A stretch of 64,000 bases of DNA from Thermoplasmatota archaeon (GTDB lineage: Archaea > Thermoplasmatota > E2 > JACPAO01 > JAHFTW01): NCBI GenBank assembly GCA_038046725.1, contig JBBSVQ010000001.1, forward strand, positions 187,780 through 251,779, in the 5' to 3' direction. The position numbers and the translations under genes were made by a program. Under the pieces are notes generated by a model. It saw only the letters and a list, made by a program, of their open reading frames with translations. It was not told where the DNA came from and did not search any database. Position 1 is the stretch's first letter; every line of letters begins with the position of its first letter. Shown here in pieces: positions 28,421 through 40,306 of this stretch.

Positions 28421-29466
28421 TGCGCACAATTTCCCTGGTCCTAGTCGCTGCCATTGTCATGGCAGGTTGCCTCGCCGGCACCAAGTCCGACAATGGCGCG
28501 CAGCCGACCGGCACGACAGACACCACCAACGCCTTGACAGCCACCGAAAAACCGGTGGCCCCACAAGAGGACGCCCTTGCCCCGACAACAGGGGCCGGTC
28601 AACCGATCCAAGAAGGAAACTTCGGCGGCAGCCTGGTGCATGACGGCGTCGAACGCACGTACGAGCTCCACGTCCCACCAGGACTCTTGTCCAATCAATC
28701 GATTCCCTTGATGCTCGTCATCCATCCGGCCCTTGCCAATGCCGCCGCGGTGCACGGTGGCTTCGGATTCGACTCCTACGCCGACGAGCACGGATTCATC
28801 ATCGCCTATCCTGACGGCACCCGTGAAGAGGCGGGCAGCGACGAGCGGACCTGGAACGCCATGCACTGCTGCGGCGTCGGCCACTCGACCAACGTCGACG
28901 ACGTGGGCTTCCTCTTGGACCTCATCGCCAAGATGCGCCGCGACTATCCCCTCGACGCCGGCCACATCGGCTTGGTCGGCCACAGCAACGGCGCCATGCT
29001 AGCCCACCGCTTCGCCGCCACCCATAGCGAACTCGTCTCCTCCGTCACCGCCGTTGGTGGCACCATCGGAGGACAAGAGGACCGCTTCTCGCCGCAGCTG
29101 CAAGTCCCGGATCCCTCAAGCCCAGTCTCAGTCCAGATTATTCACGCCTACGACGACCCCATCGTCACCTATTACGGCGGCCCCAACCGCGGCTTCTACG
29201 AGCGCAACCGCCTCGACACACCCGTCCGTGATTCAGTGGACTTCTGGCGGGACTACGACGGCGCAACCGAGAAAACCGGAAGCTGGAGCGACAACGGCGT
29301 CGACTACGAGACCTACCGGGCCCCCGACGGGACCGAGGTCGACCTGGTCTCCACGAACGGGGGACACGGCTGGCCCGGCTCGGGACAGCCAATCCCGAAA
29401 ATCGTCAAGGTGCCGCCATTCCCTCACGCGACTCTGCTGGCCGTGGAATTTTTCCTGGCCCATTGA
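28420..29466 (+). CDS. Secreted alpha/beta-hydrolase esterase (PHB depolymerase/LpqC-like)
   Basis: Lipobox IVMAGC, ...VERTYELHVPPGL...PLMLVIHPALANAAA...GFIIAYPDGT..., and the nucleophile elbow ...LVGHSNGAMLA.... Confidence 0.75.
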   Translation: MRTISLVLVAAIVMAGCLAGTKSDNGAQPTGTTDTTNALTATEKPVAPQEDALAPTTGAGQPIQEGNFGGSLVHDGVERTYELHVPPGLLSNQSIPLMLVIHPALANAAAVHGGFGFDSYADEHGFIIAYPDGTREEAGSDERTWNAMHCCGVGHSTNVDDVGFLLDLIAKMRRDYPLDAGHIGLVGHSNGAMLAHRFAATHSELVSSVTAVGGTIGGQEDRFSPQLQVPDPSSPVSVQIIHAYDDPIVTYYGGPNRGFYERNRLDTPVRDSVDFWRDYDGATEKTGSWSDNGVDYETYRAPDGTEVDLVSTNGGHGWPGSGQPIPKIVKVPPFPHATLLAVEFFLAH

Positions 29467-29473
29467 GCACGCG

Positions 29474-29493
29474 GTTGTAGCCGTGTTGTAGCC
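29474..29493. promoter_or_regulatory. Tandem direct 9-mers GTTGTAGCC (x2, 11-bp register) facing inverted copies inside repeat copy B
   Basis: GGTTGTAGCCGTGTTGTAGCC here. GGCTACAACCCGGCTCCAACC at 29545..29565 is the inverted partner. The same word starts the three 35-bp motifs at 37435, 38999 and 40061. Confidence 0.35.
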
Positions 29494-29543
29494 ACGGCCT
29501 AACGGACATACTAACGTACCCTGTCGTGGTTGTGAGTGCGGAT

Positions 29544-29649
29544 GGCTACAACCCGGCTCCAACCGCTACACTGGTCCGCGGCCGATTGGGTCGTGTTGGG
29601 GGCAAGGACTAGCTAACCTCGCAGCAGGCTTGGGCGTAATGCCGTACAG
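29544..29649. repeat. Copy B of the ~106-bp dispersed repeat
   Basis: The 64-nt block is about 95% identical to copy A. The 25-nt middle differs, and the 17-nt 3' block GGCGTAATGCCGTACAG is conserved. Confidence 0.6.
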
Positions 29650-29735
29650 TTGAGCTCATTGGCGTCATTCCACCCGAAAAAGTCTGCTTTGCACAACCGA
29701 CCAGTTGACGCCCAAAGCCAGAACCCCCAAGTCGG

Positions 29736-30254
29736 CTAGGGTCCCCGCATGCCGTCCGCGCCTTCGACCAAACGGTCAATCATGCGGTCCATGATGCTGC
29801 TCTGATACGTGATCGCCAATCGCATGACCGCGTCGCCATCGATGACGCGATAGACGGCCTCGCGACCTTCGCGACTGGCTTCAATCAGGCCGGCTTCGAC
29901 GAGATGCTGGAGATGATAGTTGGCGGTGCTGGACGCCAAATCCAGCCCCGCGAGAATCGCAGCCTTGGATTGTTGGCCATGCTCGATGAGCCAAGCGAGG
30001 ATGCGGCGCGGGATGGTTTGGCGCAAGAATGCGACCCGACGCTTGTCTTCTGCGTCCATCCGGGCCGGGAAGAACCGCTTGTTCCCGTCTTGGACGACGG
30101 TGACCAAGTTCGCAGCGACCAGTTGTTCGAGATGGTACTCCAAGGTACCCATGGAGCCGAAGACGCGTTGGAGCTCGCGCAAGTATTGGCCGGGGTGGCG
30201 CAACAGGTGCTGGTAGAGGTCCCGTCGGGCCTCCAGCGCCAAAGCTTCGCGCAC
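29736..30254 (-). CDS. ArsR-type regulator with two wHTH domains (paralogous architecture to 27830..28420)
   Basis: ...LYQHLLRHPGQYLRELQRVFGSMGTLEYHLEQLVAANLV... and ...RRILAWLIEHGQQSKAAILAGLDLASSTANYHLQHLVEAGLI.... Confidence 0.65.
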   Translation of the reverse strand: MREALALEARRDLYQHLLRHPGQYLRELQRVFGSMGTLEYHLEQLVAANLVTVVQDGNKRFFPARMDAEDKRRVAFLRQTIPRRILAWLIEHGQQSKAAILAGLDLASSTANYHLQHLVEAGLIEASREGREAVYRVIDGDAVMRLAITYQSSIMDRMIDRLVEGADGMRGP

Positions 30255-30255
30255 G

Positions 30256-30528
30256 TCAATCCCGCGTCATGCTCAGGAAGAACAGCAACAGGATCAGGCA
30301 GTCGGCGATGATTCCGATGGTCTCGAACAAGTCGTTTTGCTCTGGGAAGATGAGTTCGGTGCCGATGAAGAGGCTCTTCAGGAAGAACACGGCGAAGGCT
30401 GCCATGAAGAACATCAGCCTCTTCGTTCGGGCGCGCCGGTACGCCTGCGCCGAGAAGTAAAGCATCACGGCGGCAAACAGCGGGACGAGCAGACGGAAGA
30501 TGTCGTGCAGTTCGATGGGTTCAGCCAT
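30256..30528 (-). CDS. Small 3-TM membrane protein, upstream partner of the regulator
   Basis: Three TM helices. Its stop is 1 nt from the start of 29736..30254. Confidence 0.5.
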   Translation of the reverse strand: MAEPIELHDIFRLLVPLFAAVMLYFSAQAYRRARTKRLMFFMAAFAVFFLKSLFIGTELIFPEQNDLFETIGIIADCLILLLFFLSMTRD

Positions 30529-30699
30529 GGGTCATCCGGGAGATGGTTTGGCACTTGAAAACCCGGTCGATGTCACAACCGGACAACAGCAGGGCGAGAG
30601 TTGAAGCAATGATGAGAGGGACTGGGCGCATGGTTGGGACTCCGGTTTCAAGGGCGGAATGGGGAATCGAAAGGGAAGAGGGGGGAAAATGGCGACGAA

Positions 30700-31026
30700 T
30701 TACTCGTCCTTGGCGTCGTCTTCGTCGTCCGAGGCGTCGTTTTCACCGCAGTCGCTGTCGTCCTTGTCGTCGGAGTCGTCAGCGTCTTGGTGTCCTGGCT
30801 CGTTGGGGTCGGCGTCAGGGCCCTGGTCGGGGCCGTCTTCGGCTCCTTCAGCGGTCTCGGCGGCGTCCCCGGACTCGTCAGCGTCCTGGTGGCCGGCTTC
30901 GTTCGGATCCGCATCGATGCAGGCCGTGCCGCTGTCGCCGGTTGTCTGGGCGAAGACGGCGTATCCGCCGCCAACGACCAAACCGACCAGCAACATCAGG
31001 GCCGGCCAAGTGGTTCGTAGATTCAT
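30700..31026 (-). CDS. Small secreted highly acidic protein
   Basis: Signal peptide MNLRTTWPALMLLVGLVVGGGYAVFA, then a D/E-rich region (..DADESGDAAETAEGAEDGPDQGPDADPNEPGHQDADDSDDKDDSD..). Possible cation-binding. Confidence 0.45.
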   Translation of the reverse strand: MNLRTTWPALMLLVGLVVGGGYAVFAQTTGDSGTACIDADPNEAGHQDADESGDAAETAEGAEDGPDQGPDADPNEPGHQDADDSDDKDDSDCGENDASDDEDDAKDE

Positions 31027-31106
31027 GGGGTCACATCCCCGGCATGCCGGGTTGAAGGGGAATCCGTGGCCGTTGTATACTCCGTTTTCAGGACAGGGTT
31101 CGCCGA

Positions 31107-31440
31107 TTAGGACATGGGTCGCCGCGAGAGCCACCCCATGACTCCCCCGCAGGTTGTTGTTTGGCGCTTCTTGCCTTGCCGGTGTCCCGTGACCAGACCG
31201 TACTCCATGAGGCATGCAACGTCTTCGCTGACGTTCTTGGCGTCCCGCTTGAGGGCGGCGGTGAGTTGCTTGACGTTGGCTTCTCCGAGTTCCCGCAGGA
31301 CTTCCAAGATGTGCAGCCTGGTTCACGTCAGTTTGCTGAGGTCTGCCTCATCCAGGAGCAAGACGTCCTGCAGGTTGAACTCCAGCTTGAGTCGCTTCGG
31401 GTCTTCCTCGAAGAGCTTGCAAGGCTGCCGTTGTCATCGG
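31107..31440 (-). pseudogene. Degenerate partial duplicate of the wHTH regulator gene 36675..37109
   Basis: About 85% nucleotide identity to 36721..37000 over roughly 280 bp. A frameshift and substitutions break the frame; only a 66-aa ORF (MEVLRELGEANVKQLTAALKRDAKNVSEDVACLMEYGLVTGH...) survives. Confidence 0.55.
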
Positions 31441-32086
31441 AGGCATGGTGGTCCATCGGGACCTCGGCGGACTCATGGTGCCCGGCGGCGCCCGCGCCCA
31501 GGCCCGGGAACACCTCGGCCGCGGCGAAACCGACGCCATACAAGGCCCCAGCCAAGGCCACGCCCAACAGGATGCTGACGACCATTCGCCCGACGGAAGG
31601 GCCGACTGCTCCCGTCCCTCGCGTGCTCAGGAGGGCACCTCCCAAGACAAGGGCCGTGACGAGCTCGGCGGCGTCCGTGATGAACCCGATGGCATCGATG
31701 CCTTCGGATTCACCGGTGAACGGGTTGCGGAAGCTTCGCGTCACCGCGTAGAGCGCGAGGGGGATGATGGCAAGGGCGATGCCGGATTCGCGGTACCAAC
31801 GGAAGGGCGTCCGCAAGGCCGCCACGGCCCACAAGGTCTGGGACGCGCCGATGGTCGCGAAGAACAGGCCGGTGCCCAGGGCCTCACTGAGATGCGACGG
31901 CGTCAGGACCAAGTGCAGGATGCCCGCCACGAGCTGGAACGCGATGGCAATCGTCAGCAGGACTGAAGGCCCCGTGGCGCGGGCGGTGGGTGCAGGGGCC
32001 GGCGGCTCCGGGGCAACCTTGGATGCGTCCAGGATGCGGCGCATGGAATCGGCCCGGGCCAGCGCTTTGTCAAGGTCGTCCGGCAA
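31328..32086 (-). CDS. Integral membrane protein (about 6 TM), C-terminus probably altered by the adjacent duplication
   Basis: TM-rich N-terminal 200 aa. The last ~35 codons (...DNGSLASSSRKTRSDSSWSSTCRTSCSWMRQTSAN) read through the pseudogene copy in a different frame. Confidence 0.5.
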   Translation of the reverse strand: MPDDLDKALARADSMRRILDASKVAPEPPAPAPTARATGPSVLLTIAIAFQLVAGILHLVLTPSHLSEALGTGLFFATIGASQTLWAVAALRTPFRWYRESGIALAIIPLALYAVTRSFRNPFTGESEGIDAIGFITDAAELVTALVLGGALLSTRGTGAVGPSVGRMVVSILLGVALAGALYGVGFAAAEVFPGLGAGAAGHHESAEVPMDHHASDDNGSLASSSRKTRSDSSWSSTCRTSCSWMRQTSAN

Positions 32087-32094
32087 GAGTCACC

Positions 32095-32202
32095 GTCAGT
32101 GCTTGTGGCCGTCGTCCGGGTGGTGCTTGTGAGCGTGCGCGTCCGCGGCCTTCTTGTCAGCGACTTTGGTCTTCTTGCCGAAGAGTTTGTCGAAAATGTC
32201 CA
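32095..32202 (-). CDS. His-rich micro-ORF (35 aa) 13 nt downstream of the ZIP transporter
   Basis: MDIFDKLFGKKTKVADKKAADAHAHKHHPDDGHKH. Not in the ORF track because it is under 60 aa. Same strand as the ZIP gene with a normal stop. Confidence 0.3.
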
Positions 32203-32214
32203 TGGTGTGACTCC

Positions 32215-33606
32215 CTAGACTTCAATGCCGACCATGGCCGGGATGAGGACGACGATCAAAGCGACGATGATGCCGACGCCGAAACCCAACCCGACTGGCA
32301 TGCGTTGCTCGCGGGCCCGCAGCTCCGGCAACAGTTCGGCCAGGGCGATGAAGATGAACGTGGCCGCAGCGAGGGCGACGAGGTGTCCCACCAGCTTCTC
32401 GCTGCCGACGAGGAAGATGCCGACCAGGCTGCCGACGGGCGTCAACGCGGCCATGATGGCGATGCCACCGAGGACCTTGCGGCGACGCCAGGCGGCGGCG
32501 AGGAAGACGCTGGCAGCTGCGATGCCATCGGGGAACTGGTGGATGAGCACGGCACTCGCCGCGGCGAAGCCGACCGCGCTGTCAAGCTCGAAGGCGGCCG
32601 GCAGGACGAGGCCGTCCACGAAGCGGTGGAAGCCGAGGGCGAAGAACGCGACCAAGGCCAAGCCGGCGGCATGGGTCGCGACGCGCTCGTGCCCGGCGGC
32701 GTCGTGCGCTTCCTCGTGGCCGTGCTCGTCCTCCGCGTCGTGCGCATCGTGCGGGTGGCCGGCATGGTCGTGGCCGTGGTCACCCGCGAAGTGACGCACC
32801 AGGAACAGGACGACTAGGCCGCCCACGATGGTGAACGGGGCAGCCTCATTGAGCTCGATGGCCTCCGGGATGAGGTCGAGGACCGCGATGGCCAGCAAGA
32901 GGCCCGCCGTGGCCCCGAGCAGGAAGTGGATGCGGCGCTGGGACACGGTCCGGCCGGCGATGGCCATGACGCCGGCCAGCAGCGTGATGGCGCCCGCCAA
33001 GACGGCGATGCCGAGGACCCAGGGCAGGCTGAGGCCGGACCCGGACGTCACGTCGCCGCCATCGTCGCCGCCAGGTCCGGGGGGCGCGGCAAGATTCGCT
33101 TGGATGGCGTGCAACCTGGTGGACGGCGAGCCGCACACGATGGAGACGGATTGCCCAAGCGGCGCAGGGCCCGTCTTGGTCAAGGTGACCGTGATCACGA
33201 CGGGGCCGGTCACGTTGTCCGCAGCCGGGACACTGAACGCCAGGGTGGCCGGGGAATCGACGGCCGTGCCGGCGCCGTACGCCTTGGAGGCCTGGGCCGG
33301 CGGCGCGGAGCCGATGGCCAGGGTCGCGGCCACGGTGAAACCCGTGCCCGGAGTGGCCCCTTGCGCGAAGGCGAGGCTGAGGAGCGCGGACTGCTCCGGC
33401 ACCGCGTACGTCCCGTTGAAGGGCGCGCCCTCGAACGTGCCCGTGACCGTGTTGGCTCCACCGGTCGCCAGGGTCAGGCAGTTGCTGGCCGAGCCAGGTT
33501 CAGCGGCCAGGCTTCCGTCGGCGCGCAGGTAGAGGTCTCCCGAACTGGCGGCGCTGGCCAGGGGCGCCAACAGCAGGAGCGCGAGCACGGCGGTTCGTCG
33601 GTTCAT
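32215..33606 (-). CDS. ZIP-family metal transporter fused to an N-terminal secreted domain
   Basis: Signal peptide MNRRTAVLALLLLAPLASAASS, then a ~200-aa Ala/Thr/Gly-rich extracytoplasmic domain. ZIP core with an intracellular His-rich loop (GDHGHDHAGHPHDAHDAEDEHGHEEAHDAAGHE) and ...HQFPDGIAAASV.... The upstream 238 codons of ORF 32215..34323 are Arg/His junk. Confidence 0.8.
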   Translation of the reverse strand: MNRRTAVLALLLLAPLASAASSGDLYLRADGSLAAEPGSASNCLTLATGGANTVTGTFEGAPFNGTYAVPEQSALLSLAFAQGATPGTGFTVAATLAIGSAPPAQASKAYGAGTAVDSPATLAFSVPAADNVTGPVVITVTLTKTGPAPLGQSVSIVCGSPSTRLHAIQANLAAPPGPGGDDGGDVTSGSGLSLPWVLGIAVLAGAITLLAGVMAIAGRTVSQRRIHFLLGATAGLLLAIAVLDLIPEAIELNEAAPFTIVGGLVVLFLVRHFAGDHGHDHAGHPHDAHDAEDEHGHEEAHDAAGHERVATHAAGLALVAFFALGFHRFVDGLVLPAAFELDSAVGFAAASAVLIHQFPDGIAAASVFLAAAWRRRKVLGGIAIMAALTPVGSLVGIFLVGSEKLVGHLVALAAATFIFIALAELLPELRAREQRMPVGLGFGVGIIVALIVVLIPAMVGIEV

Positions 33607-33611
33607 GGGGT

Positions 33612-34643
33612 TCACGTCGCCGGCCAACCGCAGCTTGCGGAGTCGCATTGGCCACTTGGGTCTTCCACTTGCACGGTGACGTGCCGGATCTTGTATGTGT
33701 CGCGCAAGTGGCGAGCGATGTTGATGCTGAGGTTGTCGTTCTCGCGGGGTCCCTTGAGGTTGATGTGGACCGTCAAGGCGTCGAGGCCGGTGCCGATGTG
33801 CCAGATGTGCAGGTCGTGGATGTCCCGCACGTTGGGCATGCCGCGCAGGTCGCGGGCAACCGCATCCGCGTCGACGCTGTCGGGCGTTCCCTGCATGAGG
33901 ATGTGAAGGGTCTCCCGCGTGAGCTTCCACGTGAACAGGAGGATGAGGATGGTGATGAAGATCGTCAGGATGGGGTCGGCGACGTGCCAGCCCTTGTAGT
34001 AGATGAGGACACCAGCGACCAAGGCAGCGGCGGAGCCAAGCACGTCCGACAGGATGTGCACGTACGCGGCGCGGACGTTGATGTTGTGGCCGGAGCCGGC
34101 ATGCAGGACGAAGGCCAACCCGATGTTCGTGACCAGCGTGAGTGCGCCGATGGCCATCACGACCGGACCATGGACCTCGGGAGGGTTGCTGATGCGGACG
34201 TAGGCTTCCCAGAGGAAATAGACGGAGATGCCCCACAGCACGAGGGCGTTGACGAAGGCCGCGATGACCTCGGCGCGTTGGTGCCCATAGGTCCGGCGCT
34301 TGTCGGCGGGTTTCAGGGCCCAAGACACGGCGAGGAACGCCAGGAGGACGGCGCCGACATCTGTGGCGTAATGGCCCGCGTCTGCCAGAAGGACCAAGGA
34401 ATTGGCCGCGAGGCCGCCGGCGATCTCGGCGACCATGACGAGTGTGCCGGCGAAGGCGACGAAGAGGAGGCGCTTGCGGTTCTTGACTGCCATCTCCTTC
34501 AATTCGGAGCCGTGGTCGTGTCCATCGTGGCCATGTCCGCCGCTTCCATGGTCGTGGCCCGAATGGTCGTGTCCGTCGTGGTCGTCGTGGTGCCCATGGT
34601 CCTCCGCATGCCCTTTGGCAGACGGCTGGGCCCCGCCTGCCAT
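33612..34643 (-). CDS. Cation diffusion facilitator (CzcD-like) with His-rich N-terminal tail
   Basis: N-tail ...HAEDHGHHDDHDGHDHSGHDHGSGGHGHDGHDHG.... Six TM with ...LLADAGHYATD... and ...HVHILSDVLGS..., plus the C-terminal cytoplasmic domain. Confidence 0.85.
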   Translation of the reverse strand: MAGGAQPSAKGHAEDHGHHDDHDGHDHSGHDHGSGGHGHDGHDHGSELKEMAVKNRKRLLFVAFAGTLVMVAEIAGGLAANSLVLLADAGHYATDVGAVLLAFLAVSWALKPADKRRTYGHQRAEVIAAFVNALVLWGISVYFLWEAYVRISNPPEVHGPVVMAIGALTLVTNIGLAFVLHAGSGHNINVRAAYVHILSDVLGSAAALVAGVLIYYKGWHVADPILTIFITILILLFTWKLTRETLHILMQGTPDSVDADAVARDLRGMPNVRDIHDLHIWHIGTGLDALTVHINLKGPRENDNLSINIARHLRDTYKIRHVTVQVEDPSGQCDSASCGWPAT

Positions 34644-34787
34644 CGGGAGCCCCGAGGCGCTGCGCGGGTTTGGCCGGGGGTTGCTACCGACGGTCTCTTC
34701 CACGTCTTCTGTCCAAGGCGCACAGGATATCAGGTGGCTGCTAAGCGGGCCGCCTTCTTTTCATAAGCCCTAGAGGCCGCCGTGGAA

Positions 34788-35162
34788 TCAGATGGGCGCT
34801 GGCGTGACGCGGACGCCGTCGATCTTGGTCAGAGCGTCCAGCAACTCGTGGATGCGCGGGCCGTCGCCGTGCAGGATCAGCGAGTCGACGCAGGTCCCTT
34901 CCAAGTGGTGGTGGAGACTGGTGCTGACGAGGTCGTCGAACTCGTGGGCCACGCGGTTGACCTCCTCTTGGCTGCGGTCGGCCTCGTACACCAAGGTGAG
35001 CGCCATGTGGACGTGGCCCTCGAATTTCATCTGGTGCATCGCGATGAAGTGCTGCAAGGCCGCGCGAACGGCGCTGGAGCGGCTGCCGAAGGCGAAGTGC
35101 TCGACGAGCTTGTCGAATTGCTTGAGTTCCTTGCCGGACAGCGAGACGGAGATGACGGTCAT
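34788..35162 (-). CDS. NikR-like metal-responsive regulator (RHH + ACT-like metal-binding domain)
   Basis: N-terminal RHH MTVISVSLSGKELKQFDKLVEHFAFGSRSSAVRAALQHF, C-terminal ...HVHMALTLVYEADRSQEEVNRVAHEFDDLVSTSLHHHLEGTCVDSLILHGDG.... The upstream part of the ORF is Arg-rich. Confidence 0.65.
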   Translation of the reverse strand: MTVISVSLSGKELKQFDKLVEHFAFGSRSSAVRAALQHFIAMHQMKFEGHVHMALTLVYEADRSQEEVNRVAHEFDDLVSTSLHHHLEGTCVDSLILHGDGPRIHELLDALTKIDGVRVTPAPI

Positions 35163-35221
35163 GGAGGTCGCGGGGCCGGCGTTTGCAGGGTCAAAGGAGT
35201 ACAGGGACTTGCCGGAGGCGG

Positions 35222-35638
35222 TCACCCCAACGGCTGGGGTGGGCCCTTGGCGAACCAGCGGGCGTAGTAGCGCTTCTTGCTCACCAGTTGCAGGATGCCC
35301 AGGATGACGATGGCGACGCCGATGCCGAGGTGGACGAGGACCGCGATTCCGGGCGGGAACAGGAAGTCGTGGATGGCGAGCAGGCTTCCGAGAAAGAAGG
35401 CGACGAAGCCAAAGACCAAAGGTGCCGAGCCTGACCGCCGGACCAAGGCCAACACTGCGACGACGATTCCGGCCACGGCCAGAATCGGTCCGCCGGCCCA
35501 TACGGCGATCTCCAGCGGATTGCTGACGGCGGCGAGGACGAAGGCGCCGAGCACGATGAGGACGACGCCGAAGCCGACCTCAATGGGCGCCATGGACCGG
35601 GTGGGCTTGGGCTGCTTGGAGCCTTTGGCGGTGGCCAT
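35222..35638 (-). CDS. Integral membrane protein (4 TM), hypothetical
   Basis: Four TM helices with normal composition. Confidence 0.45.
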   Translation of the reverse strand: MATAKGSKQPKPTRSMAPIEVGFGVVLIVLGAFVLAAVSNPLEIAVWAGGPILAVAGIVVAVLALVRRSGSAPLVFGFVAFFLGSLLAIHDFLFPPGIAVLVHLGIGVAIVILGILQLVSKKRYYARWFAKGPPQPLG

Positions 35639-35812
35639 CTGCGTGCTTCGAACTCCAGGCAACGCTTGAAGTGTGTCCTAAGAACGGGCTCGGTTCTTAG
35701 TAAGGTCAGCGGAACCCCGGGCTTCCAGGGCAAGGCAAGCCACCGCGGCGGCGAGGCCCACGATGGCCCAGAGCAGCGGACGCCAGTCCTTGCGGACATC
35801 TCGTGCTTGACG

Positions 35813-36460
35813 CTATTGGGATGGGCGCTCGTAGACGGCCACTTGCCAGAAGCCTGCGCGCTGGTGGTGCTGACGGATTAGTCCCGCCCGTTCGAGTTCC
35901 CCGTGGACCAGATTGTCAGGATGGATGCGCATGCGGAACGGGTTCCGGGTCACGACCAGGATGGAATTCATTCCGCGGGCCGCCAACCGAGTCCACCATC
36001 GGTCGCGCGGCCACACGAGACCCAAGCGGCCCTTCGCTCGCTCCGCGGCGCGGTGGAGCAACGCACTGGCGTCAGGATAGCAGCACACGACCCGGTCGAG
36101 CGTGACGAGGTCGGCGGACTCCACCTGGGAGGCCACGTCCACGAAATCGCCGTAGAGATACCGGGCCCGCTCCCCGTAGCCCCGGCGGTGTGCCTCCTTC
36201 TTGGCGACATCGAGGTAGGCTTGGCTGGCGTCGACGTCCGTGAGCCTCGTGGCCCCCCTTGTCGCGAGTTCGTGCTGCACGACGCCTACGCCGCCGCCAA
36301 TGTCGAGGACGGTTCTGGCAGCGAACCCTTCCGCGGTCACGGCGCCGACAAGTAGCCTCGTGGTCTTGATGGGGCCCCTCCGTTGGTAGCGCCGGAGTTC
36401 TCGGCGCGCCGTTCGCGAGGAGAAGATCTTCTCCGCGCCCTGACAGTGCGGGCAAACCAT
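35813..36460 (-). CDS. Class I SAM-dependent methyltransferase with N-terminal Cys-x2-Cys
   Basis: MVCPHCQG..., motif I ...VLDIGGGVGVV..., and the post-I acidic residue ...LTDVDAS.... Confidence 0.7.
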   Translation of the reverse strand: MVCPHCQGAEKIFSSRTARRELRRYQRRGPIKTTRLLVGAVTAEGFAARTVLDIGGGVGVVQHELATRGATRLTDVDASQAYLDVAKKEAHRRGYGERARYLYGDFVDVASQVESADLVTLDRVVCCYPDASALLHRAAERAKGRLGLVWPRDRWWTRLAARGMNSILVVTRNPFRMRIHPDNLVHGELERAGLIRQHHQRAGFWQVAVYERPSQ

Positions 36461-36674
36461 CGAGCGACATACACCGAGGCAGAGACATGAACGCGTCGGA
36501 CGCCCTACGTTCGGTCGACGCTCCACGTGCTTCGCATATGGATGCCCGAGTTGCGAGACCAAGGGCGTGGTCGTCCGGGGGCGGTGAGTGGCCCTGCTGC
36601 TCGGCCCGCCGGCATCCCCAACGTAACGGCACCTGCAGGGAGGTTCGATTTCGGGCGACCCCAGGGGAATGGCC

Positions 36675-37109
36675 TCAGACTGAGATTACGATCTGGTTGC
36701 CGGCGAGCTGGACGAGCTTCTCTTTGCCGTCCCGATGGCCGGTCACCAATCCGTACTCCATGAGGCAAGCGACGTCTTCGCTGACGTTCTTGGCGTCCCG
36801 TTTCAGGGCGGCCGTGAGTTGCTTGACGTTGACTTCGCCCAACTCGCGCAGAACCTCCAAGACATGGAGCCGGGTCCACGTCAGTTTGCTGAGGTCTGCC
36901 TCGTCGAGGAGCAAGACGTCCTGAAGGTGGAAGTCGAGCTTGAGGCGCTTCGGATCCTCCTCGAAGAGCTTGAGGTTGAACAAAGCGTCCTTGGCTTCCA
37001 TGTCGCCCTTCTTGGCAAGCTTCGCCACGGCCTCGCGGCTGCCGTACTTCGCCAGGATCTCGGTTCGCATCTCGAGTCCGGTCATTTGCCGCTTGATTCG
37101 GATTTCCAT
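36675..37109 (-). CDS. wHTH transcriptional regulator (intact parent of the 31107..31440 pseudogene)
   Basis: ...RLHVLEVLRELGEVNVKQLTAALKRDAKNVSEDVACLMEYGLVTGHRDGKEKLVQL.... The alternative start MTGLEM would remove the overlap with 37082..37360. Confidence 0.6.
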   Translation of the reverse strand: MEIRIKRQMTGLEMRTEILAKYGSREAVAKLAKKGDMEAKDALFNLKLFEEDPKRLKLDFHLQDVLLLDEADLSKLTWTRLHVLEVLRELGEVNVKQLTAALKRDAKNVSEDVACLMEYGLVTGHRDGKEKLVQLAGNQIVISV

Positions 37110-37360
37110 GTCTTGACCTCCTGTTTCAATTTCTCCAAGTTGAATGAGTTGTGCTTCGCGCGGTAGCGTCGCATGATGGCATCCGCCTCCGCTGCAGACC
37201 CGACACTAACATTGGGGCCGGCTCCGGGGTCACTTGGATGGTGCAGATGCGTGCCATGGTGATGCGCGTGATTGTAGCGGCAGATGCGGTAGTCAAAAGA
37301 AGGATCGAGGACGGACCATTCGCCGCCCTCGTTCTCCTGCCGCCGCAGCCGCCACTTCAC
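37082..37360 (-). CDS. Small K/R-rich-N-terminus protein, member of a three-gene paralogous family
   Basis: MKWRLRRQENEGG...SAAEADAIMRRYRAKHNSFNLEKLKQ aligns with ...GEATAEIRAWAKDYIARNKAMLDLM (39859..40011) and ...DEGAETRAWAKDHIERNRGRH (38809..38946). The 35-bp motif lies 75 bp upstream. Confidence 0.35.
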   Translation of the reverse strand: MKWRLRRQENEGGEWSVLDPSFDYRICRYNHAHHHGTHLHHPSDPGAGPNVSVGSAAEADAIMRRYRAKHNSFNLEKLKQEVKTWKSESSGK

Positions 37361-37434
37361 GATTGGTCGAATAGACCATGGGTTTTTGGGCTACTTAACG
37401 ATTGGTGTTAGACGCCAATTGATGCCGGAGCGGT

Positions 37435-37469
37435 GTTGTAGCCATCCGCTACCAGACCCCGCAGCAAGT
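37435..37469 (-). promoter_or_regulatory. Conserved 35-bp upstream motif, copy 1
   Basis: GTTGTAGCCATCCGCTACCAGACCCCGCAGCAAGT. It aligns without gaps with copies at 38999 and 40061. Confidence 0.4.
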
Positions 37470-37551
37470 CTGCTGGACCGGCCAACGGTGGAGAGTCGGC
37501 GTCGCGGCTAGAGCCGTTCCAGGGCCTTGTAGTTGGTCTGGAAGCTGGCGG

Positions 37552-38808
37552 CTACGCCGGTTCGCGTTCGACTTCGTCGCGCAGGTCCAAGGCCTGCATA
37601 GCGCTGATCCCAAGGGCCATGGCGACCTCGGCGAGGTGGCGCTCCTCGCGACGCGTGAGTGTCCCATCTCGCATCGCCGCGCGCAAGGCCGCCTTGTAGC
37701 CTGCGACCGCCGAAGTCGATGCTGCGGTGTCCGGTCTCGACCGGTCGGAGGAGCGCTCGATGGCGCGTTGGATTGGGCTCGCTGCGAACACGAAGGTGCC
37801 GGCCAGGATGCCGCCCATGAGCAGGCCGTATTCGGCGCTGAAGAAGTTCTGGGCCACTTGGGCGACGATGAAAAGGACGGCCAAAGCCCCACCTGCAAGG
37901 ACTCCGCTGCGGACCGCGACCCGTGTCCATGGGACCTTGAGGAGGTCGTGCTTCACGATGGCGAAGGCGAGCAGAGTGGCGCTGATGGTACGCAGAATGC
38001 CAAAGGCACCGTAGTCCTCGCTGCCGTCGCCGACGAGGACGACGACGAGCGCCAAGGCGCCGGCGGCCAGCAAGGCGATGAACGCCGACCGGGCCAGACG
38101 GGGCTCGCGGCCCGCTGAAGGGACAACGAACGCGGCGGCACCAATGGCGGCAGACGAGGCGTGCACGAAGAGGCCGGCGTAGGCCAACCACGCCTCCCAA
38201 CGGTCGACCGCGAGCGGCGCCGACGCGTTGAAGACACAAAGGAAAATCGTGAAGAGGCCGAAGGCCAGCGTCAGGCCGACCATCGCCCGACGATCATGGC
38301 TGGCCGTGACTGGCTCCGCGTGGAAGCGGGCGACGCACGCTGCAAGCAGCACGATGAACGCACTGATGTTAGCCGAAAGGACTGACCCCACGACAACGGC
38401 ATCGATTCCAGTCCCGAAGATGGCGATGGCCGCCCGCTCCTCGAAAGCCCCCCAAAAGGCAACCATAACGCCCACCCAGGCAAGTGCCTGCACCACGGCC
38501 ATCGACGCGACGAAACGTCGCCAAGAGGGCGTCACGCCCTTGGTCAGATGGATGGCCAACGCCACGGCCAGCAAGAACACGGGGAGTGTGAGGGCCGCGA
38601 CGATCCAAGGCTCTGGCCCGGCCGTTGCCCTGTCGTAATCGAGAAGGTTCTCGGAGATTAAGGCAAGGCCCCACGACCCTGACAGGCCCCCGATCAGGCG
38701 GCCGCGCTGCGTGCCGCGCCCCCTGACGAGGATCACGGCGCCGAGGGCGAGGAACAGGAACGCGCCGCCTGCGTTGATGAGGGCGGACAGCGAAAGGTCG
38801 TACTGCAC
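37552..38808 (-). CDS. Polytopic membrane protein (about 10 TM) with C-terminal soluble helical domain
   Basis: TM-rich throughout, GTG start. C-terminal ...GTLTRREERHLAEVAMALGISAMQALDLRDEV.... Confidence 0.55.
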   Translation of the reverse strand: MQYDLSLSALINAGGAFLFLALGAVILVRGRGTQRGRLIGGLSGSWGLALISENLLDYDRATAGPEPWIVAALTLPVFLLAVALAIHLTKGVTPSWRRFVASMAVVQALAWVGVMVAFWGAFEERAAIAIFGTGIDAVVVGSVLSANISAFIVLLAACVARFHAEPVTASHDRRAMVGLTLAFGLFTIFLCVFNASAPLAVDRWEAWLAYAGLFVHASSAAIGAAAFVVPSAGREPRLARSAFIALLAAGALALVVVLVGDGSEDYGAFGILRTISATLLAFAIVKHDLLKVPWTRVAVRSGVLAGGALAVLFIVAQVAQNFFSAEYGLLMGGILAGTFVFAASPIQRAIERSSDRSRPDTAASTSAVAGYKAALRAAMRDGTLTRREERHLAEVAMALGISAMQALDLRDEVEREPA

Positions 38809-38946
38809 TCAGTGCACTCTCCGCGTCGTCGCGACGTGACGACCGCGGTTGCGCTCGATGTGGTCCTTGGCCCACGCGCGCGTCTCGGCCCCTTCGTCGC
38901 CGTAGAGGGAATCGCTGACGCGCGACGCTGAGAGCTTGCCCTCCAC
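38809..38946 (-). CDS. Short or remnant paralog of the small K/R-protein family (GTG start, 45 aa)
   Basis: (V)EGKLSASRVSDSLYGDEGAETRAWAKDHIERNRGRHVATTRRVH. Its stop abuts the start of the membrane protein gene. The 35-bp motif is 53 bp upstream. Confidence 0.3.
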   Translation of the reverse strand: MEGKLSASRVSDSLYGDEGAETRAWAKDHIERNRGRHVATTRRVH

Positions 38947-38998
38947 GACGTCATCGAAACCCGAAGGAGGCCATGAGGCTTGCGCGGGTTGGCCAACT

Positions 38999-39033
38999 GT
39001 TGTAGCCGTCCGCCACCAAACCCCGTAGAAGGT
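38999..39033 (-). promoter_or_regulatory. Conserved 35-bp upstream motif, copy 2
   Basis: GTTGTAGCCGTCCGCCACCAAACCCCGTAGAAGGT. Confidence 0.4.
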
Positions 39034-39189
39034 TGCATTCAGGTCTTGCGCCCAATCTCCTTGAGCTTCGTCTCGAACCCGGCGTAGAACCGCCGCGCCG
39101 GGTGGTCGGGATTCCGCAAGGCGGCCACCGTTGATAGCGAGCGTAACCCATTGGGTTAAGCATATAACGTGTAACGTGCATAGTTACGC

Positions 39190-39516
39190 GTGGATGTGGA
39201 GCGCTTCCTGGTCCCAGTCGGCCAGGACCTCGTCATCCGCGTCGAGTTGCGCAAGAAGGCAGGCCGATTGGCAGGCTTCGTCTGTCAACTTGAGGCAGAC
39301 GATGGCGAGGACGTCGTTCCGGTCGTCCGGTACGACACCAGCCACGGCTACCTGCATGTGCACAAGTATTGGCTCTCCGAGGAACGGGAAGTGAAGGACA
39401 TGGAAGACCGCAACCATCCAGCCACCGACTACACGACCCAATTGGACGAAGCCCTCGACAATCTCGTCGAACACCACGTGGACTACGTCGCGCGCATGAA
39501 GCGCGCAGGAAAGTGA
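39190..39516 (+). CDS. Hypothetical protein (GTG start), tightly coupled to the downstream wHTH gene
   Basis: VDVERFLVPVGQDLVIRVELRKKAGRLAGFVCQLEADDGEDVVPVVRYDTSHGYLHVHKYWLSEEREVKDM.... There is a 5-nt gap to the next gene. Confidence 0.4.
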   Translation: MDVERFLVPVGQDLVIRVELRKKAGRLAGFVCQLEADDGEDVVPVVRYDTSHGYLHVHKYWLSEEREVKDMEDRNHPATDYTTQLDEALDNLVEHHVDYVARMKRAGK

Positions 39517-39521
39517 ACCCG

Positions 39522-39854
39522 ATGACCAAGACCGACATGCGCCGCGCCGCCGACTTCATCCGCAAGGTCGCCAAGGCCCCCGCGGGAGCCTACCCGGATT
39601 CCTTCATCGCTTTCGAGTGGGGGAGCCCGCTCCTCTTGCAGATCATGAGCGGCGAGAAGAGCCGCCTCATCGAGTACCTCAAGGAACACGGCCCCGTCGA
39701 AAGCGTCACGACGCTAAGCCAGGCCTTAGGCAGGTCCCGGGAAGCCGTGAGCCGCGACCTGCACGTCCTCGTCAAGACCGGAGTCATCCTTGCCGAGCAG
39801 CATGGAAAGACGAAGACGCTCTCGGCTAGCGAACGACCAATCCTAATTCGCTAG
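39522..39854 (+). CDS. wHTH transcriptional regulator
   Basis: ...IEYLKEHGPVESVTTLSQALGRSREAVSRDLHVLVKTGVILAEQHG.... Confidence 0.5.
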   Translation: MTKTDMRRAADFIRKVAKAPAGAYPDSFIAFEWGSPLLLQIMSGEKSRLIEYLKEHGPVESVTTLSQALGRSREAVSRDLHVLVKTGVILAEQHGKTKTLSASERPILIR

Positions 39855-39858
39855 TCAT

Positions 39859-40011
39859 TCACAGGCGCGCCATCAAGTCGAGCATGGCCTTGTTGCGCGC
39901 AATGTAGTCCTTCGCCCAGGCACGGATTTCGGCCGTCGCTTCCCCATACAGGGACTCGTCGCGCGGCTTGCGAGTCTTGCGCGGCTTGCGAGTCTTGCGC
40001 GGCTTGGGCAT
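39859..40011 (-). CDS. Small K/R-rich protein with tandem PRKTRK repeats (50 aa), family member 3
   Basis: MPKPRKTRKPRKTRKPRDESLYGEATAEIRAWAKDYIARNKAMLDLMARL. Not in the ORF track (under 60 aa). The 35-bp motif is 50 bp upstream. Coordinates may be off by 1 nt. Confidence 0.4.
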   Translation of the reverse strand: MPKPRKTRKPRKTRKPRDESLYGEATAEIRAWAKDYIARNKAMLDLMARL

Positions 40012-40060
40012 GCGTCTACGAGGCCGCCCATTCGCATGAGACTTGCGCGGCTACGAGCGT

Positions 40061-40095
40061 ATTGTAGGAATCCGCTATCGGACCTCGCAGAAGGT
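40061..40095 (-). promoter_or_regulatory. Conserved 35-bp upstream motif, copy 3
   Basis: ATTGTAGGAATCCGCTATCGGACCTCGCAGAAGGT. Confidence 0.4.
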
Positions 40096-40188
40096 CGCGT
40101 TAAAGCCTCCAACAGGAGAGAATTCGAGCCCGACTTATCGCGACTAACGCACCTTGTAGTAGGTCCAGGCGCGGATGCTGGCAATTCG

Positions 40189-40306
40189 CCTACAAATCTC
40201 CCCCAATCCTCTCACAGTTGGGGTAGAATTGTGGGCGAACGGTGGGCCATTTTGGGGGCAATCGCTACCGAACATCTTGCCACCTATAGGCCTCATGCCG
40301 TACCAG
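40189..40306. repeat. Divergent copy C of the ~106-bp repeat family
   Basis: CCTACAAATCTCCCCC...TTGGGGGCAATCG...GGCCTCATGCCGTACCAG shares the CTACAA start, the TTGGGGGCAA block and the ATGCCGTAC(C)AG 3' block with copies A and B. Confidence 0.4.

What the first reader, a model, noticed from the sequence alone, without database searches (positions are those of the whole stretch)
37082..40095. Family of three small K/R-rich genes, each preceded by the same gap-free 35-bp motif
Genes at 37082-37360, 38809-38946 and 39859-40011 share a C-terminal helical block (AEIRAWAKDYIARNKA / AETRAWAKDHIERNRG / ADAIMRRYRAKHNSFN). Two have strongly basic N-termini (MPKPRKTRKPRKTRKPR with a perfect tandem PRKTRK, and MKWRLRRQ). 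Each sits 50-75 bp downstream of a 35-bp element that aligns without gaps: GTTGTAGCCATCCGCTACCAGACCCCGCAGCAAGT, GTTGTAGCCGTCCGCCACCAAACCCCGTAGAAGGT, and ATTGTAGGAATCCGCTATCGGACCTCGCAGAAGGT. Two of the genes are too short for the ORF track and would be missed by standard callers. Each is adjacent to a regulator or membrane-protein gene. Candidate roles are small nucleic-acid-binding or autoregulatory proteins, or antitoxin-like proteins, with the motif as operator or promoter.
Basis: seen in the sequence. Interest (0 to 1): 0.6.

Follow-up and report, generated by a model that had tools for sequence, protein, structure and literature searches.

The report
Duplicated antitoxin-like gene with upstream element
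Two of the three small genes belong to an unnamed 43-residue protein family of uncultured Thermoplasmatota archaea that normally sits just upstream of a Doc/Fic-like toxin gene, and the shared 35-base motif is a selected non-coding piece of that gene's upstream region that was copied and rearranged with it, so this is a decayed toxin-antitoxin-like locus and not three parallel genes.

Summary
The 35-nt motif is real. It occurs three times (37435, 38999, 40061), with none expected by chance. The "family of three" is not real.

- **g3 and g2:** they belong to a conserved ~43-aa family with a disordered N-terminal tail and one 27-residue helix. The word-indexed search found 34 clusters, and every source-named one is from Thermoplasmatota.
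- **Usual partner:** elsewhere the gene lies 4 nt upstream of a 153-167-aa Fic/Doc-like gene ([Q/H]PFxDANHRTA). The window keeps only a 32-codon remnant of that gene (39042-39137).
- **State of the two genes:** g3 is an intact orphan. g2 is a chimera, cut after ...RNR and fused onto a 418-aa membrane-protein gene.
- **g1:** it is unrelated (hhalign probability 0.2%). It follows the motif only because the small gene between them was deleted. Loci L006 and L013 show the intermediate arrangements.
- **Core promoter:** a second conserved box, GCGCAAGNCTCATG, lies 23-25 nt before the start codon in 10 of 10 loci. That is the archaeal BRE/TATA position for a leaderless mRNA.
- **The motif:** it lies 12-39 nt further upstream and is as conserved as codon positions 1 and 2 (0.82 against 0.59 for third positions). 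It is part of a ~300-nt module related to a dispersed repeat. It is most likely a protein-binding regulatory site, but this is unproven.

The parts
39859..40011 (-). g3: intact 50-aa member of the small-protein family. It has a variable basic tail and the conserved helix SLYGEATAEIRAWAKDYIARNKAMLDLMARL. It is an orphan, with no Doc-like gene downstream.
   Evidence: AlphaFold gives one helix at residues 23-49, pLDDT 88-97. Codon positions 1+2 are 0.84 identical and position 3 is 0.59.
39961..40006 (-). Perfect 18-nt tandem repeat (2.6 copies) encoding PRKTRK-PRKTRK. The copy number varies: P0001 has one unit fewer.
40035..40048 (-). Box 2 of copy 3 (GCGCAAGTCTCATG), 23 nt before the ATG. It is the inferred BRE/TATA-position core promoter of a leaderless mRNA.
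   Evidence: Positional AT profile of 47 upstream regions.
40061..40095 (-). 35-nt motif, copy 3. Sense strand: ACCTTCTGCGAGGTCCGATAGCGGATTCCTACAAT.
40144..40303 (-). E-like 5' part of the conserved upstream module. It holds GTACGGCAT..., a first motif-like arm (about 40252-40278) and an inverted motif-like arm (about 40151-40185, including ACTACAAGGT). The adjoining hairpin CTCCTGTTGGAG is at 40107-40118.
   Evidence: It is 82% identical to L016 over 290 nt.
38809..38946 (-). g2: 45-aa chimeric derivative of the family. Homology ends after ...DHIERNR, so the conserved C-terminal EMLDLMARL is lost. Its stop codon directly abuts the GTG start (38808) of the next gene.
   Evidence: Identical to P0022.
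38972..38985 (-). Box 2 of copy 2 (GCGCAAGCCTCATG), 25 nt before the GTG start of g2.
38999..39033 (-). 35-nt motif, copy 2.
39042..39137 (-). Remnant (last 32 codons) of the Fic/Doc-like partner gene. It ends 5 nt before motif copy 2.
   Evidence: tblastn gives 81% identity to residues 136-167 of the L010 protein. Flank comparison.
37552..38808 (-). 418-aa multi-pass membrane protein gene with no Pfam family. It now lies directly behind g2 and its promoter module.
37435..37469 (-). 35-nt motif, copy 1. It is a relic, because box 2 and the small gene that followed it are deleted.
37535..37555 (-). Inverted partner of motif copy 1 (21 nt, 81% complementary).
37411..37424 (-). Left border (CATCAATTGGCGTC) of the g1-HTH module. 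The same border is joined to three different left-hand sequences in the window, L006 and L013.
37082..37360 (-). g1: 92-aa His-rich protein (CRYNHAHHHGTHLHHP). It is not a member of the small family. It is the first gene of a two-gene module with the overlapping wHTH gene.
   Evidence: Orthologues in L006 and L013 are 80-85% identical.
36675..37109 (-). 144-aa HVO_A0114-type winged-helix protein, partner of g1.
   Evidence: Pfam PF25212, E = 7.9e-12..

Best explanation
The window comes from an uncultured Thermoplasmatota archaeon (MAG GCA_964365265.1).

**The small gene.** g3, and in truncated form g2, encode a lineage-specific mini-protein with a disordered, variable N-terminal tail and one amphipathic 27-residue helix. 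Its normal place is 4 nt upstream of a 153-167-aa Fic/Doc-like gene. I infer that it is the inhibitor or antitoxin partner of that protein and acts by binding it through the helix. Comparable cases are the C-terminal helix of Phd on Doc and FicA/VbhA on class I Fic toxins.

**State in this window.** The toxin-like gene has been lost, and only 32 codons remain. g3 is an intact orphan. g2 is a recombinant stump whose promoter module now precedes a membrane-protein gene. The third motif copy has lost the small gene altogether and abuts the unrelated g1-wHTH module.

**Transcription (inferred).** The small gene is transcribed as a leaderless mRNA from box 2 (GCGCAAGNCTCATG). Box 2 spans about -38 to -25 relative to the start codon.

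**The motif (inferred).** The 35-nt motif lies 12-13 or 36-39 nt upstream of box 2. It contains an imperfect dyad, GTCCG-N4-CGGAY, and the word GCCTACAAC. It is under purifying selection. Most likely it is a DNA site for a regulatory protein, acting as an operator or upstream activating site. It travels with the promoter as part of a ~300-nt module. That module is related to a dispersed repeat, the 'E element', of these genomes.

**Shown:** family membership, synteny, the rearrangements, conservation of the motif, and the fixed spacing of box 2.
**Inferred:** antitoxin function, promoter function, and protein binding to the motif.
For: - **Origin:** the source record and the archaeal context come.
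- **Family size:** 34 clusters in the word-indexed search, plus 11 representatives at 50% identity in an exhaustive HMM search. One of those 11 is a repetitive 3017-aa protein I take to be spurious. There are no longer, domain-bearing relatives.
- **Coding selection:** codon positions 1+2 are 0.84 identical against 0.59 for position 3.
- **Structure:** the model is a single helix at residues 23-49 with pLDDT 88-97. The N-terminus has pLDDT about 64.
- **Synteny:** the small gene is followed at 4 nt by the 153-167-aa gene in L002/L003, L004, L010, L012, L016, L019 and L020, and by a truncated copy in L013. In addition, 14 contig-length matches link the two families' hit lists.
- **Partner is Fic/Doc-like:**
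  - 21 of 28 members hit Pfam Fic, best E = 3.8e-4.
  - The top PDB sequence hit is a death-on-curing protein, aligned over the motif.
  - hhalign to P1 Doc gives E = 4.8e-4, aligning QPFFDANHRTAL with HIFNDANKRTAL.
  - The model has pLDDT 92, and its top Foldseek hits are Phd-Doc 3K33/3DD7 followed by Fic proteins.
- **Rearrangements:**
- **Box 2 spacing:** 23-25 nt in 10 of 10 loci, while the intervening sequence varies. An AT-rich peak at -35 to -25, a second at -11/-10, and G/C at -1 appear in 47 upstream regions of these genomes.
- **Motif under selection:** mean pairwise identity is 0.82. The whole module is 82% identical between c3 and L016, although the adjacent gene's third positions are only 45% identical.
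Against: - No Fic/Doc-like partner gene is present in the 64-kb window, so g3 may have no target here.
- The main clade of the partner family has Gln at the catalytic His position of the Fic motif. The partner may therefore not be a toxin at all.
- All Fic/Doc similarity scores are below curated thresholds.
- The small protein lacks the [S/T]xxxE[G/N] inhibitory motif. It has no recognisable DNA-binding domain, so it is unlikely to bind the motif itself.
- The motif is absent upstream of family members that still have box 2 (L017, L019, L020). It is also absent from L001, L002, L004 and L015. It is therefore not required for expression of the gene.
- Motif-like arms occur in inverted pairs and in a dispersed repeat. 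That fits a repeat-element origin as well as an operator.
- Box 2 is GC-rich and not a canonical TATA box. No transcription start site data exist.
Confidence: 0.55

Rival explanations
1. The motif is an arm of a dispersed, MITE-like or recombination-prone repeat element. Its copies mark the places where a portable promoter-plus-gene module was duplicated, inserted or deleted. Its conservation then reflects element function, such as recombinase or transposase binding, and not gene regulation.
For: - Motif homologues occur as inverted pairs in the E elements at 23.6 and 29.5 kb and in L001.
- The motif has an inverted partner upstream in c1, c3 and L016.
- GTTGTAGCC occurs 6 times exactly in the window, against about 0.5 expected from my own back-of-envelope estimate. 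With one mismatch allowed there are 18 matches against 8.4 expected.
- The module lies next to different upstream genes in different genomes.
- Homology breakpoints coincide with the motif edge in c2. A half-motif follows the Doc-like gene in L010 and L016.
- An E element plus a box-2-like sequence precedes a different toxin-antitoxin operon, mazE-PIN, in L001.
Against: - No integrase or transposase lies within 10 kb on either side.
- No target-site duplications were identified.
- L010, L012 and L013 have no inverted partner.
- The motif pattern hit only one real extra locus in 185,579 species genomes and none in the metagenome collection. That argues against an actively spreading element.
- The integron attC core sites RYYYAAC/GTTRRRY are not matched.
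Confidence: 0.25
2. The motif acts as RNA. It would be a hairpin (GUCYG-NNNN-CGGAY) in a 5' leader or small RNA, and the alternative pairings between the three arms would act as a switch.
For: - All changes in the 5-bp stem among six of the seven distinct gene-upstream motif copies compared (c1, c2, c3, L006, L010, L012, L013) keep G-C or G-U pairing on the sense strand only. This comes from reading the copies.
- Arm 2 can pair with arm 1 or with arm 3.
Against: - There are no compensatory double changes.
- The L006 copy has a G-G mismatch in the stem.
- MFE z-scores are only -0.2 to -1.5.
- RNAalifold gives a covariation term of about 0.
- There is no Rfam match, even at E <= 1.
- Box 2, at promoter distance from the start codon, would place the motif outside the mRNA.
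Confidence: 0.1
3. One reading: three paralogous small K/R-rich genes, each with its own copy of an operator or promoter.
For: The three motif copies each lie 49-74 nt upstream of a small ORF.
Against: - g1 is not homologous to g2 and g3.
- In L006 and L013 the small gene sits between the motif and g1, so the window's arrangement is a deletion product.
- g1 keeps its own conserved TTAAGTAG box between the junction and its start codon.
Confidence: 0.03
4. The motif is coding. It would be an N-terminal extension or upstream ORF reading (D)LLRG[LPA][VIL]AD[GSA]YN.
For: Many differences among the first four copies are synonymous in that frame. In L006, L010 and L012 the frame runs into the small ORF, and P0016 was called that way.
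Against: - A TAA stop lies two codons upstream in c3 and L010, and there is no start codon.
- A 1-nt insertion lies inside the motif in L016.
- The frame relative to box 2 and to the small ORF differs between loci, with spacings of 23, 24 and 25 nt.
- L013 carries non-synonymous changes.
Confidence: 0.02

Closest known systems
Phd-Doc type II toxin-antitoxin system (phage P1; PDB 3K33, 3DD7)
   Same: - A small gene sits immediately upstream of, and is translationally coupled to, a Fic-fold 'Doc' gene.
- The partner carries xPFxDANxRTAL, which aligns with Doc's HIFNDANKRTAL.
- Doc complexes are the top fold hits.
- Phd neutralises Doc through a C-terminal helix that is disordered on its own. 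This is established knowledge; see also PMC5033356 and its reference 44. The small protein here is essentially one such helix plus a disordered tail.
   Different: - There is no sequence similarity to Phd/YefM, and no N-terminal DNA-binding domain.
- The partner is about 40 residues longer than Doc.
- In the main clade the partner has Gln instead of the catalytic His, and His instead of Lys, in the motif.
- The system is archaeal and lineage-restricted.
- In this window the toxin gene is gone.
Class I Fic toxin / FicA antitoxin modules (VbhT-VbhA, EcFicT-EcFicA)
   Same: - A small helical inhibitor is encoded immediately upstream of a Fic-fold protein (PMC5033356).
- VbhT-VbhA, Bep-BiaA and Fic-1-AntF complexes are among the fold hits.
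   Different: - The defining inhibitory motif [S/T]xxxE[G/N] is not present. The family has SLYG[ED][EAQ], and these positions vary.
- FicA forms two helices, whereas the model here has one.
TumE-TumA-like pairs and DUF7718 + HVO_A0114 wHTH pairs (for the neighbouring g1-HTH module, not for g2 or g3)
   Same: - A small protein gene overlaps a downstream winged-helix gene of the HVO_A0114 type.
- A bona fide DUF7718 + HVO_A0114 pair lies at 39190-39854.
- TumE-TumA was shown to be a toxin-antitoxin superfamily with a DNA-binding antitoxin (PMC10584680).
   Different: g1 matches neither DUF7718, DUF6516 nor any Pfam, NCBIfam or PADLOC model.
Archaeal BRE/TATA promoters of leaderless mRNAs, with upstream regulator sites
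   Same: - Box 2 lies where BRE plus TATA lie when transcription starts at the start codon. That is about -38 to -25, from established knowledge of archaeal promoters.
- The same positional AT peak is seen in other genes of these genomes.
- The motif lies where archaeal activators or repressors commonly bind, just upstream of BRE.
   Different: Box 2 (GCGCAAGNCTCATG) is not a canonical TTTAWA box. There is no experimental transcription start site.

Membership tests
Phd-Doc type II toxin-antitoxin | The toxin has the Fic/Doc motif HxFx[DE][AG]N[GK]R, with a catalytic His | tested here: not met
   In related loci the partner protein has QPFFDANHR in the main clade. Only the divergent members P0077 and P0078 have HLFPDANHR and HLWPDANHR. 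Q79 aligns with Doc H66. The window itself holds only a C-terminal remnant without the motif.
Phd-Doc type II toxin-antitoxin | The toxin has the Fic/Doc fold or family membership | tested here: inconclusive
Phd-Doc type II toxin-antitoxin | The antitoxin gene lies directly upstream of the toxin gene in one operon | tested here: met
   A 4-nt gap separates the genes in L002/L003, L004, L010, L012, L016, L019 and L020. This is not the case in the window, where the toxin gene is lost.
Phd-Doc type II toxin-antitoxin | The antitoxin belongs to Phd/YefM (or RHH/AbrB) with an N-terminal DNA-binding domain | tested here: not met
   No Pfam, NCBIfam, PADLOC or PDB sequence match. The model is a single helix.
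Phd-Doc type II toxin-antitoxin | The toxin arrests growth and the antitoxin neutralises it | not testable with these tools
   Needs expression experiments.
Class I Fic toxin-antitoxin (FicT-FicA) | The antitoxin carries the inhibitory motif [S/T]xxxE[G/N] | tested here: not met
   The nearest string is S-L-Y-G-[E/D/A/K]-[E/A/Q/D]. The last position is never G or N, and the Glu is not invariant. The motif definition is from PMC5033356.
Lsr2 DNA-binding domain (PF23359) | Score above the Pfam gathering threshold | tested here: not met
   14.7 bits against a 26.9 cut-off over 12 residues. Only 3 of 29 members hit it.
Small-protein family (unnamed, Thermoplasmatota) | Conserved core SLYGxxTAxxRxWAxDYIxRNxxMLxLMARL | tested here: met
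   g3 has the full core. g2 has it only up to ...RNR. g1 lacks it.
TumE-TumA / DUF7718-HVO_A0114 pairs (g1-HTH module) | The toxin belongs to DUF6516 or DUF7718, and the antitoxin is a wHTH protein | tested here: inconclusive
   The HTH partner matches HVO_A0114 at E = 7.9e-12. g1 has no match to DUF7718 by BLASTP or to any library.
Archaeal BRE/TATA core promoter | A conserved element at about -38 to -24 from the transcription start | tested here: inconclusive
   The position relative to the start codon is met in 10 of 10 loci, and it matches the positional AT peak in other genes. The sequence is non-canonical, and the transcription start is unknown.
Integron attC / gene cassette | R'' RYYYAAC and R' GTTRRRY core sites, an array of cassettes, and a nearby IntI | tested here: not met
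   CTACAAC and GTTGTAG each miss the consensus at 2 positions (read). No recombinase gene lies within 10 kb on either side. The copies are 1-10 kb apart.
Any Rfam RNA family | A covariance-model match | tested here: not met
   No match at gathering scores over the whole window. No match at E <= 1 over 29300-40300.

The most novel reading that the evidence does not exclude
The ~300-nt conserved non-coding module has three motif-like arms in alternating orientation, a hairpin and box 2. Its dispersed E-element relatives may belong with it in a previously undescribed class of archaeal portable element. That element would be either a mobile promoter or recombination cassette that captures and shuffles toxin-antitoxin genes (small gene plus Doc-like here, mazE-PIN in L001), or a new structured regulatory RNA. 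The small helix protein would then be a new minimal inhibitor of an atypical Fic/Doc protein that lacks the catalytic His.
Probability: 0.15. Interest if true: 0.6.

Novelty: new variant of a known kind. Interest (0 to 1): 0.35.

Why it matters
If the inference holds, it adds an archaeal, lineage-specific partner family for Fic/Doc-like proteins. This partner is a one-helix mini-protein with no DNA-binding domain.

The locus also preserves successive stages in the decay of a toxin-antitoxin-like locus:
- loss of the toxin gene,
- an orphaned antitoxin-like gene,
- promoter capture by a membrane-protein gene,
- complete deletion of the small gene.

It gives a concrete candidate core promoter and a candidate upstream regulatory site for uncultured high-GC Thermoplasmatota, for which no promoter data exist. 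It also flags a conserved repeat family that annotation pipelines ignore.

None of this overturns current understanding. It is a modest extension of known toxin-antitoxin biology.

Tried and rejected
- **Bacterial promoter reading of the motif (TTGCTG...TACAAC).** Rejected because the organism is archaeal and the spacer would be 21 nt.
- **tRNA or other known RNA.** ARAGORN found nothing in the window. Rfam found nothing at gathering scores or at E <= 1.
- **Coding reading of the motif.** Rejected because of stops, indels and frame inconsistency.
- **Upstream-gene explanation for ACTACAAGGTNCGTTAG.** I first read it as a remnant of the cytochrome-b-like gene seen upstream in L010. tblastn finds no such gene in the window or in other loci. 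The same string is part of the E elements.
- **RNA structure.** Single-sequence folds are not more stable than shuffles. The alignment fold shows no covariation.
- **Searches for more motif copies.**
  - Genome contigs gave one real hit (L010) and one chance hit.
  - Metagenome contigs gave only a chance hit inside an acyl-CoA synthetase gene.
  - Viral contigs gave two chance hits.
  - The E core gave no viral hits.
  - The small protein gave no viral relatives.
- **Integron attC idea.** The core sites and the integrase are absent.
- **tRNA-linked integration.** A T-arm-like fragment lies upstream of the small gene in L017, but it does not match the neighbouring tRNA-Glu. I did not pursue it.

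Full report
**1. What is in the sequence**

All three ORFs of the finding lie on the minus strand. The 35-nt element occurs at 37435-37469, 38999-39033 and 40061-40095. These are the only three matches in 64 kb, even with 3 mismatches allowed, against 0 expected from shuffles. On the sense strand the copies end 74, 52 and 49 nt before the start codons of g1, g2 and g3. The PRKTRK repeat of g3 is a perfect 18-nt tandem repeat. The descriptive part of the finding therefore holds.

**2. Where the window comes from**

The 144-aa protein at 36675-37109 is found, with identical neighbours, on contig CAYIPJ010000002.1 of MAG GCA_964365265.1. The neighbouring domains are archaeal types: HVO_A0114, DUF7718, HTH_HVO_0163 and DUF7521. 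Relatives of the small proteins that carry a source name are all 'Thermoplasmatota archaeon'. One related locus sits next to ribosomal protein genes S24e and S27e. The organism is a high-GC (about 64%) uncultured Thermoplasmatota archaeon, so bacterial promoter logic does not apply.

**3. g2 and g3 are a real family; g1 is not in it**

- **g3 hits.** g3 retrieves 6 proteins on its own. A profile retrieves 34 clusters of 38-78 aa, all with the core SLYGEETAEIRAWAxDYIARNREMLDLMARL behind a short, variable N-terminus.
- **Narrow family.** An exhaustive HMM search of 1.84 billion cluster representatives finds only 11 at E <= 0.001. One of them is a 3017-aa repetitive protein that I take to be spurious. 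None is a longer protein with a known domain.
- **Coding selection.** Across seven loci, codon positions 1+2 of the core are 0.84 identical and position 3 is 0.59, the signature of a translated gene.
- **Structure.** AlphaFold2 with 29 sequences predicts one helix at residues 23-49 (pLDDT 88-97) after a low-confidence tail.
- **Not basic as a family.** The K/R-rich tail is found only in a sub-group (g3, P0001-3, P0017, L006). Most members begin MDGKAPAAR.
- **g2 is truncated.** g2 matches the family only up to ...DHIERNR. It then diverges and ends directly against the GTG start of a 418-aa membrane-protein gene. It is a recombinant stump that has lost the invariant C-terminal residues. An identical 45-aa sequence is annotated in a Thermoplasmatota MAG in NCBI (P0022).
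- **g1 is unrelated.** tblastn with g3 misses it. hhalign against the family profile gives probability 0.2%.

**4. Why g1 has the motif**

Locus L006, a public run assembly, carries this order: motif, box 2, small gene, a short spacer beginning CAATCAATTGGCGTC, g1, then the 144-aa wHTH gene. Locus L013 (GCA_964643795.1) carries: motif, box 2, small gene, a Doc-like gene truncated after about 50 codons, the same spacer, g1, then the wHTH gene. In the window the motif is fused directly to that spacer...CTACAACACCGCTCCGG|CATCAATTGGCGTC. The three loci form a deletion series with a common right-hand border. In the window the small gene and its promoter box are gone. g1 keeps its own conserved TTAAGTAG box between the junction and its start codon.

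**5. The usual partner of the small gene**

- **Synteny.** In L002/L003, L004, L010, L012, L016, L019 and L020 the small gene is followed, after 4 nt, by a 153-167-aa gene. Fourteen small-protein clusters and partner clusters also sit on contigs of identical length.
- **The partner family.** It has 44 clusters with an invariant AWSHWMAL...[Q/H]PFxDANHRTAL.
- **Similarity to Fic/Doc.**
  - Twenty-one of 28 members hit Pfam Fic/DOC, best E = 3.8e-4, always below the curated cut-off.
  - The best PDB sequence hit is a death-on-curing protein aligned over the motif.
  - hhalign to P1 Doc aligns QPFFDANHRTAL with HIFNDANKRTAL at E = 4.8e-4.
  - A confident model (pLDDT 92) has Phd-Doc complexes as its top two Foldseek hits, followed almost only by Fic proteins. 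The scores are weak, with E about 0.2 and TM 0.33-0.44.
- **My conclusion.** I take the partner to be a divergent Fic/Doc-fold protein. A caveat is that the catalytic His is Gln in the main clade.
- **In the window.** Only the last 32 codons of this gene survive, at 39042-39137, directly upstream of motif copy 2.
- **What this implies.** A small helical protein encoded immediately upstream of a Fic/Doc-fold gene is the architecture of Phd-Doc and of class I FicA-FicT modules (PMC5033356). I therefore infer an inhibitor or antitoxin role. The FicA inhibitory motif [S/T]xxxE[G/N] is absent, and there is no Phd-like DNA-binding domain.

**6. The non-coding region**

I aligned the upstream regions of c2, c3, L006, L010, L012, L013 and L016 and inspected L017, L019 and L020. 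Two conserved blocks emerge.

- **Box 2.** GCGCAAGNCTCATG ends 23-25 nt before the start codon in all ten loci that have it, although the sequence in between is not conserved. The spacing varies by one nucleotide either way, so this stretch is not coding. Gene callers nevertheless sometimes start the ORF at the ATG inside box 2 (P0007, P0008 and others).
- **Promoter position.** In 47 upstream regions of these genomes, AT content peaks at -35 to -25 and at -11/-10, and -1 is 89% G/C. This pattern resembles leaderless archaeal promoters. Box 2 sits exactly in the BRE/TATA window. I therefore infer that box 2 is the core promoter.
- **The motif.** The 35-nt motif lies 12-13 nt (c2, c3, L006, L016) or 36-39 nt (L010, L012, L013) further upstream. 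It is missing from L017, L019 and L020, which keep box 2, and from L001, L002, L004 and L015.
- **Selection on the motif.** Its mean pairwise identity is 0.82. That equals the value for non-synonymous positions of the adjacent gene and is far above the 0.59 for third positions. It is therefore under selection.
- **Sequence features.** It contains an imperfect dyad, which is perfect in L010 (GTCCGCTAGCGGAC), and it ends in GCCTACAAC.

**7. The motif is part of something larger**

- **A long conserved module.** The whole ~300-nt intergenic region upstream of g3 is 82% identical to that of L016. Third codon positions of the two small genes are only 45% identical.
- **Relation to a repeat.** The 5' half of the module is homologous to a repeat that I call the E element. 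Its copies lie at window 23600-23760 and 29465-29660, with cores 97% identical, and at L001 1040-1200.
- **Arms.** An nhmmer profile of the motif finds motif-like 'arms' in these elements and about 180 nt upstream of the motif in c3 and L016.
- **Layout.** The order is arm 1 (sense), arm 2 (inverted, including the string ACTACAAGGT.CG.TAG), a hairpin CTCCTGTTGGAG, arm 3 (the finding's motif), box 2, then the gene. Inverted partners of the motif are seen in c1, c3 and L016 but not in L010, L012 or L013.
- **A second toxin-antitoxin context.** In L001 an E element, followed by a box-2-like sequence, precedes a mazE-PIN operon.
- **Over-represented word.** GTTGTAGCC occurs 6 times exactly in the window, only in these elements.
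- **No mobility evidence.** No recombinase gene lies within 10 kb. The motif pattern is almost absent from 185,579 species genomes and from the metagenome and viral collections.

**8. Alternatives tested for the motif**

- **Coding.** This is contradicted by an adjacent in-frame TAA in c3 and L010, a 1-nt insertion in L016, and inconsistent frames.
- **Known RNA.** There are no matches.
- **Novel RNA structure.** Stem changes are compatible with G-U pairing on the sense strand. There is no compensatory change, and one copy has a mismatch. Fold energies are unremarkable and there is no covariation signal.
- **What remains.** A protein-binding DNA site is the best fit. The alternative is an arm of a repeat or recombination element. 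The two are not exclusive.

**9. Verdict**

The locus is best described as the rearranged remains of a lineage-specific, Doc/Fic-associated two-gene module, with its promoter region copied three times. The small protein family and the upstream module are undescribed, but the kind of system is familiar. Interest is moderate to low. The conserved 300-nt module and the E repeats are the least explained part, and the only part that could turn out to be new in kind.

Noticed in passing
window 23600-23760 and 29465-29660; L001 1040-1200: There is a conserved non-coding 'E element' repeat. Its cores at 23637-23702 and 29542-29607 are 97% identical, and the copy in another MAG is 94% identical. It has tandem GTTGTAGCC words 11 bp apart and motif-like arms in inverted orientation. 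In the window both copies lie between convergent genes. It has no Rfam match and no covariation support.
   Followed up: partly
window 31146-31418 (minus strand): There is a truncated second copy (residues 47-137, 86% identical) of the 144-aa HVO_A0114-type wHTH gene. It is also seen as a 249-nt direct repeat, 31171-31419 against 36724-36972.
   Followed up: no
window 39961-40048: The 18-nt coding repeat of g3 (AAGCCGCGCAAGACTCGC) shares 14 of 15 nt with the promoter-position box 2 just upstream (AGCCGCGCAAGTCTC). The basic PRKTRK repeats may therefore have arisen by duplication of that sequence. P0001 has one repeat unit fewer.
   Followed up: partly
related loci (proteins P0035-P0078); window 39042-39137 remnant: The Fic/Doc-like partner family has Gln in place of the catalytic His of the Fic motif in its main clade (QPFFDANHR). 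Only divergent members keep His. The 'toxin' may be catalytically atypical or inactive.
   Followed up: partly
window 39131-39854 (plus strand): A DUF7718 gene and an HVO_A0114 wHTH gene form a pair, a putative TumE/TumA-like module. A clear TATA-like box (TTAAGCATATAA) ends 23 nt before its GTG start. The pair is convergent with g3 and divergent from the c2 module.
   Followed up: partly
window 36631-36654 (plus strand); L006 1076-1108; L010 about 490-523; L016 about 5645-5690: Weak half-motif-like sequences (ACCTGCWGGGAGGTTCGAT... and AACTTCCCAGCAGGTTCGGTG) lie just downstream of the wHTH gene and of the Doc-like gene. The gene modules may therefore be flanked by related sequences on both sides.
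   Followed up: partly
L017 3290-3330 and 3623-3695: A tRNA T-arm-like fragment (CCCGGGTTCAAACCCGG) lies just upstream of box 2 of a small-gene copy. A tRNA-Glu gene lies about 100 nt downstream of that gene. The fragment does not match that tRNA.
   Followed up: partly
window 37552-38808 (minus strand): The 418-aa membrane protein behind g2 has no Pfam family. Its cytoplasmic C-terminus (residues about 356-413) weakly matches PADLOC candidate defence model PDC-S48 (E = 5e-7) and the DjlA C-terminal region.
   Followed up: no
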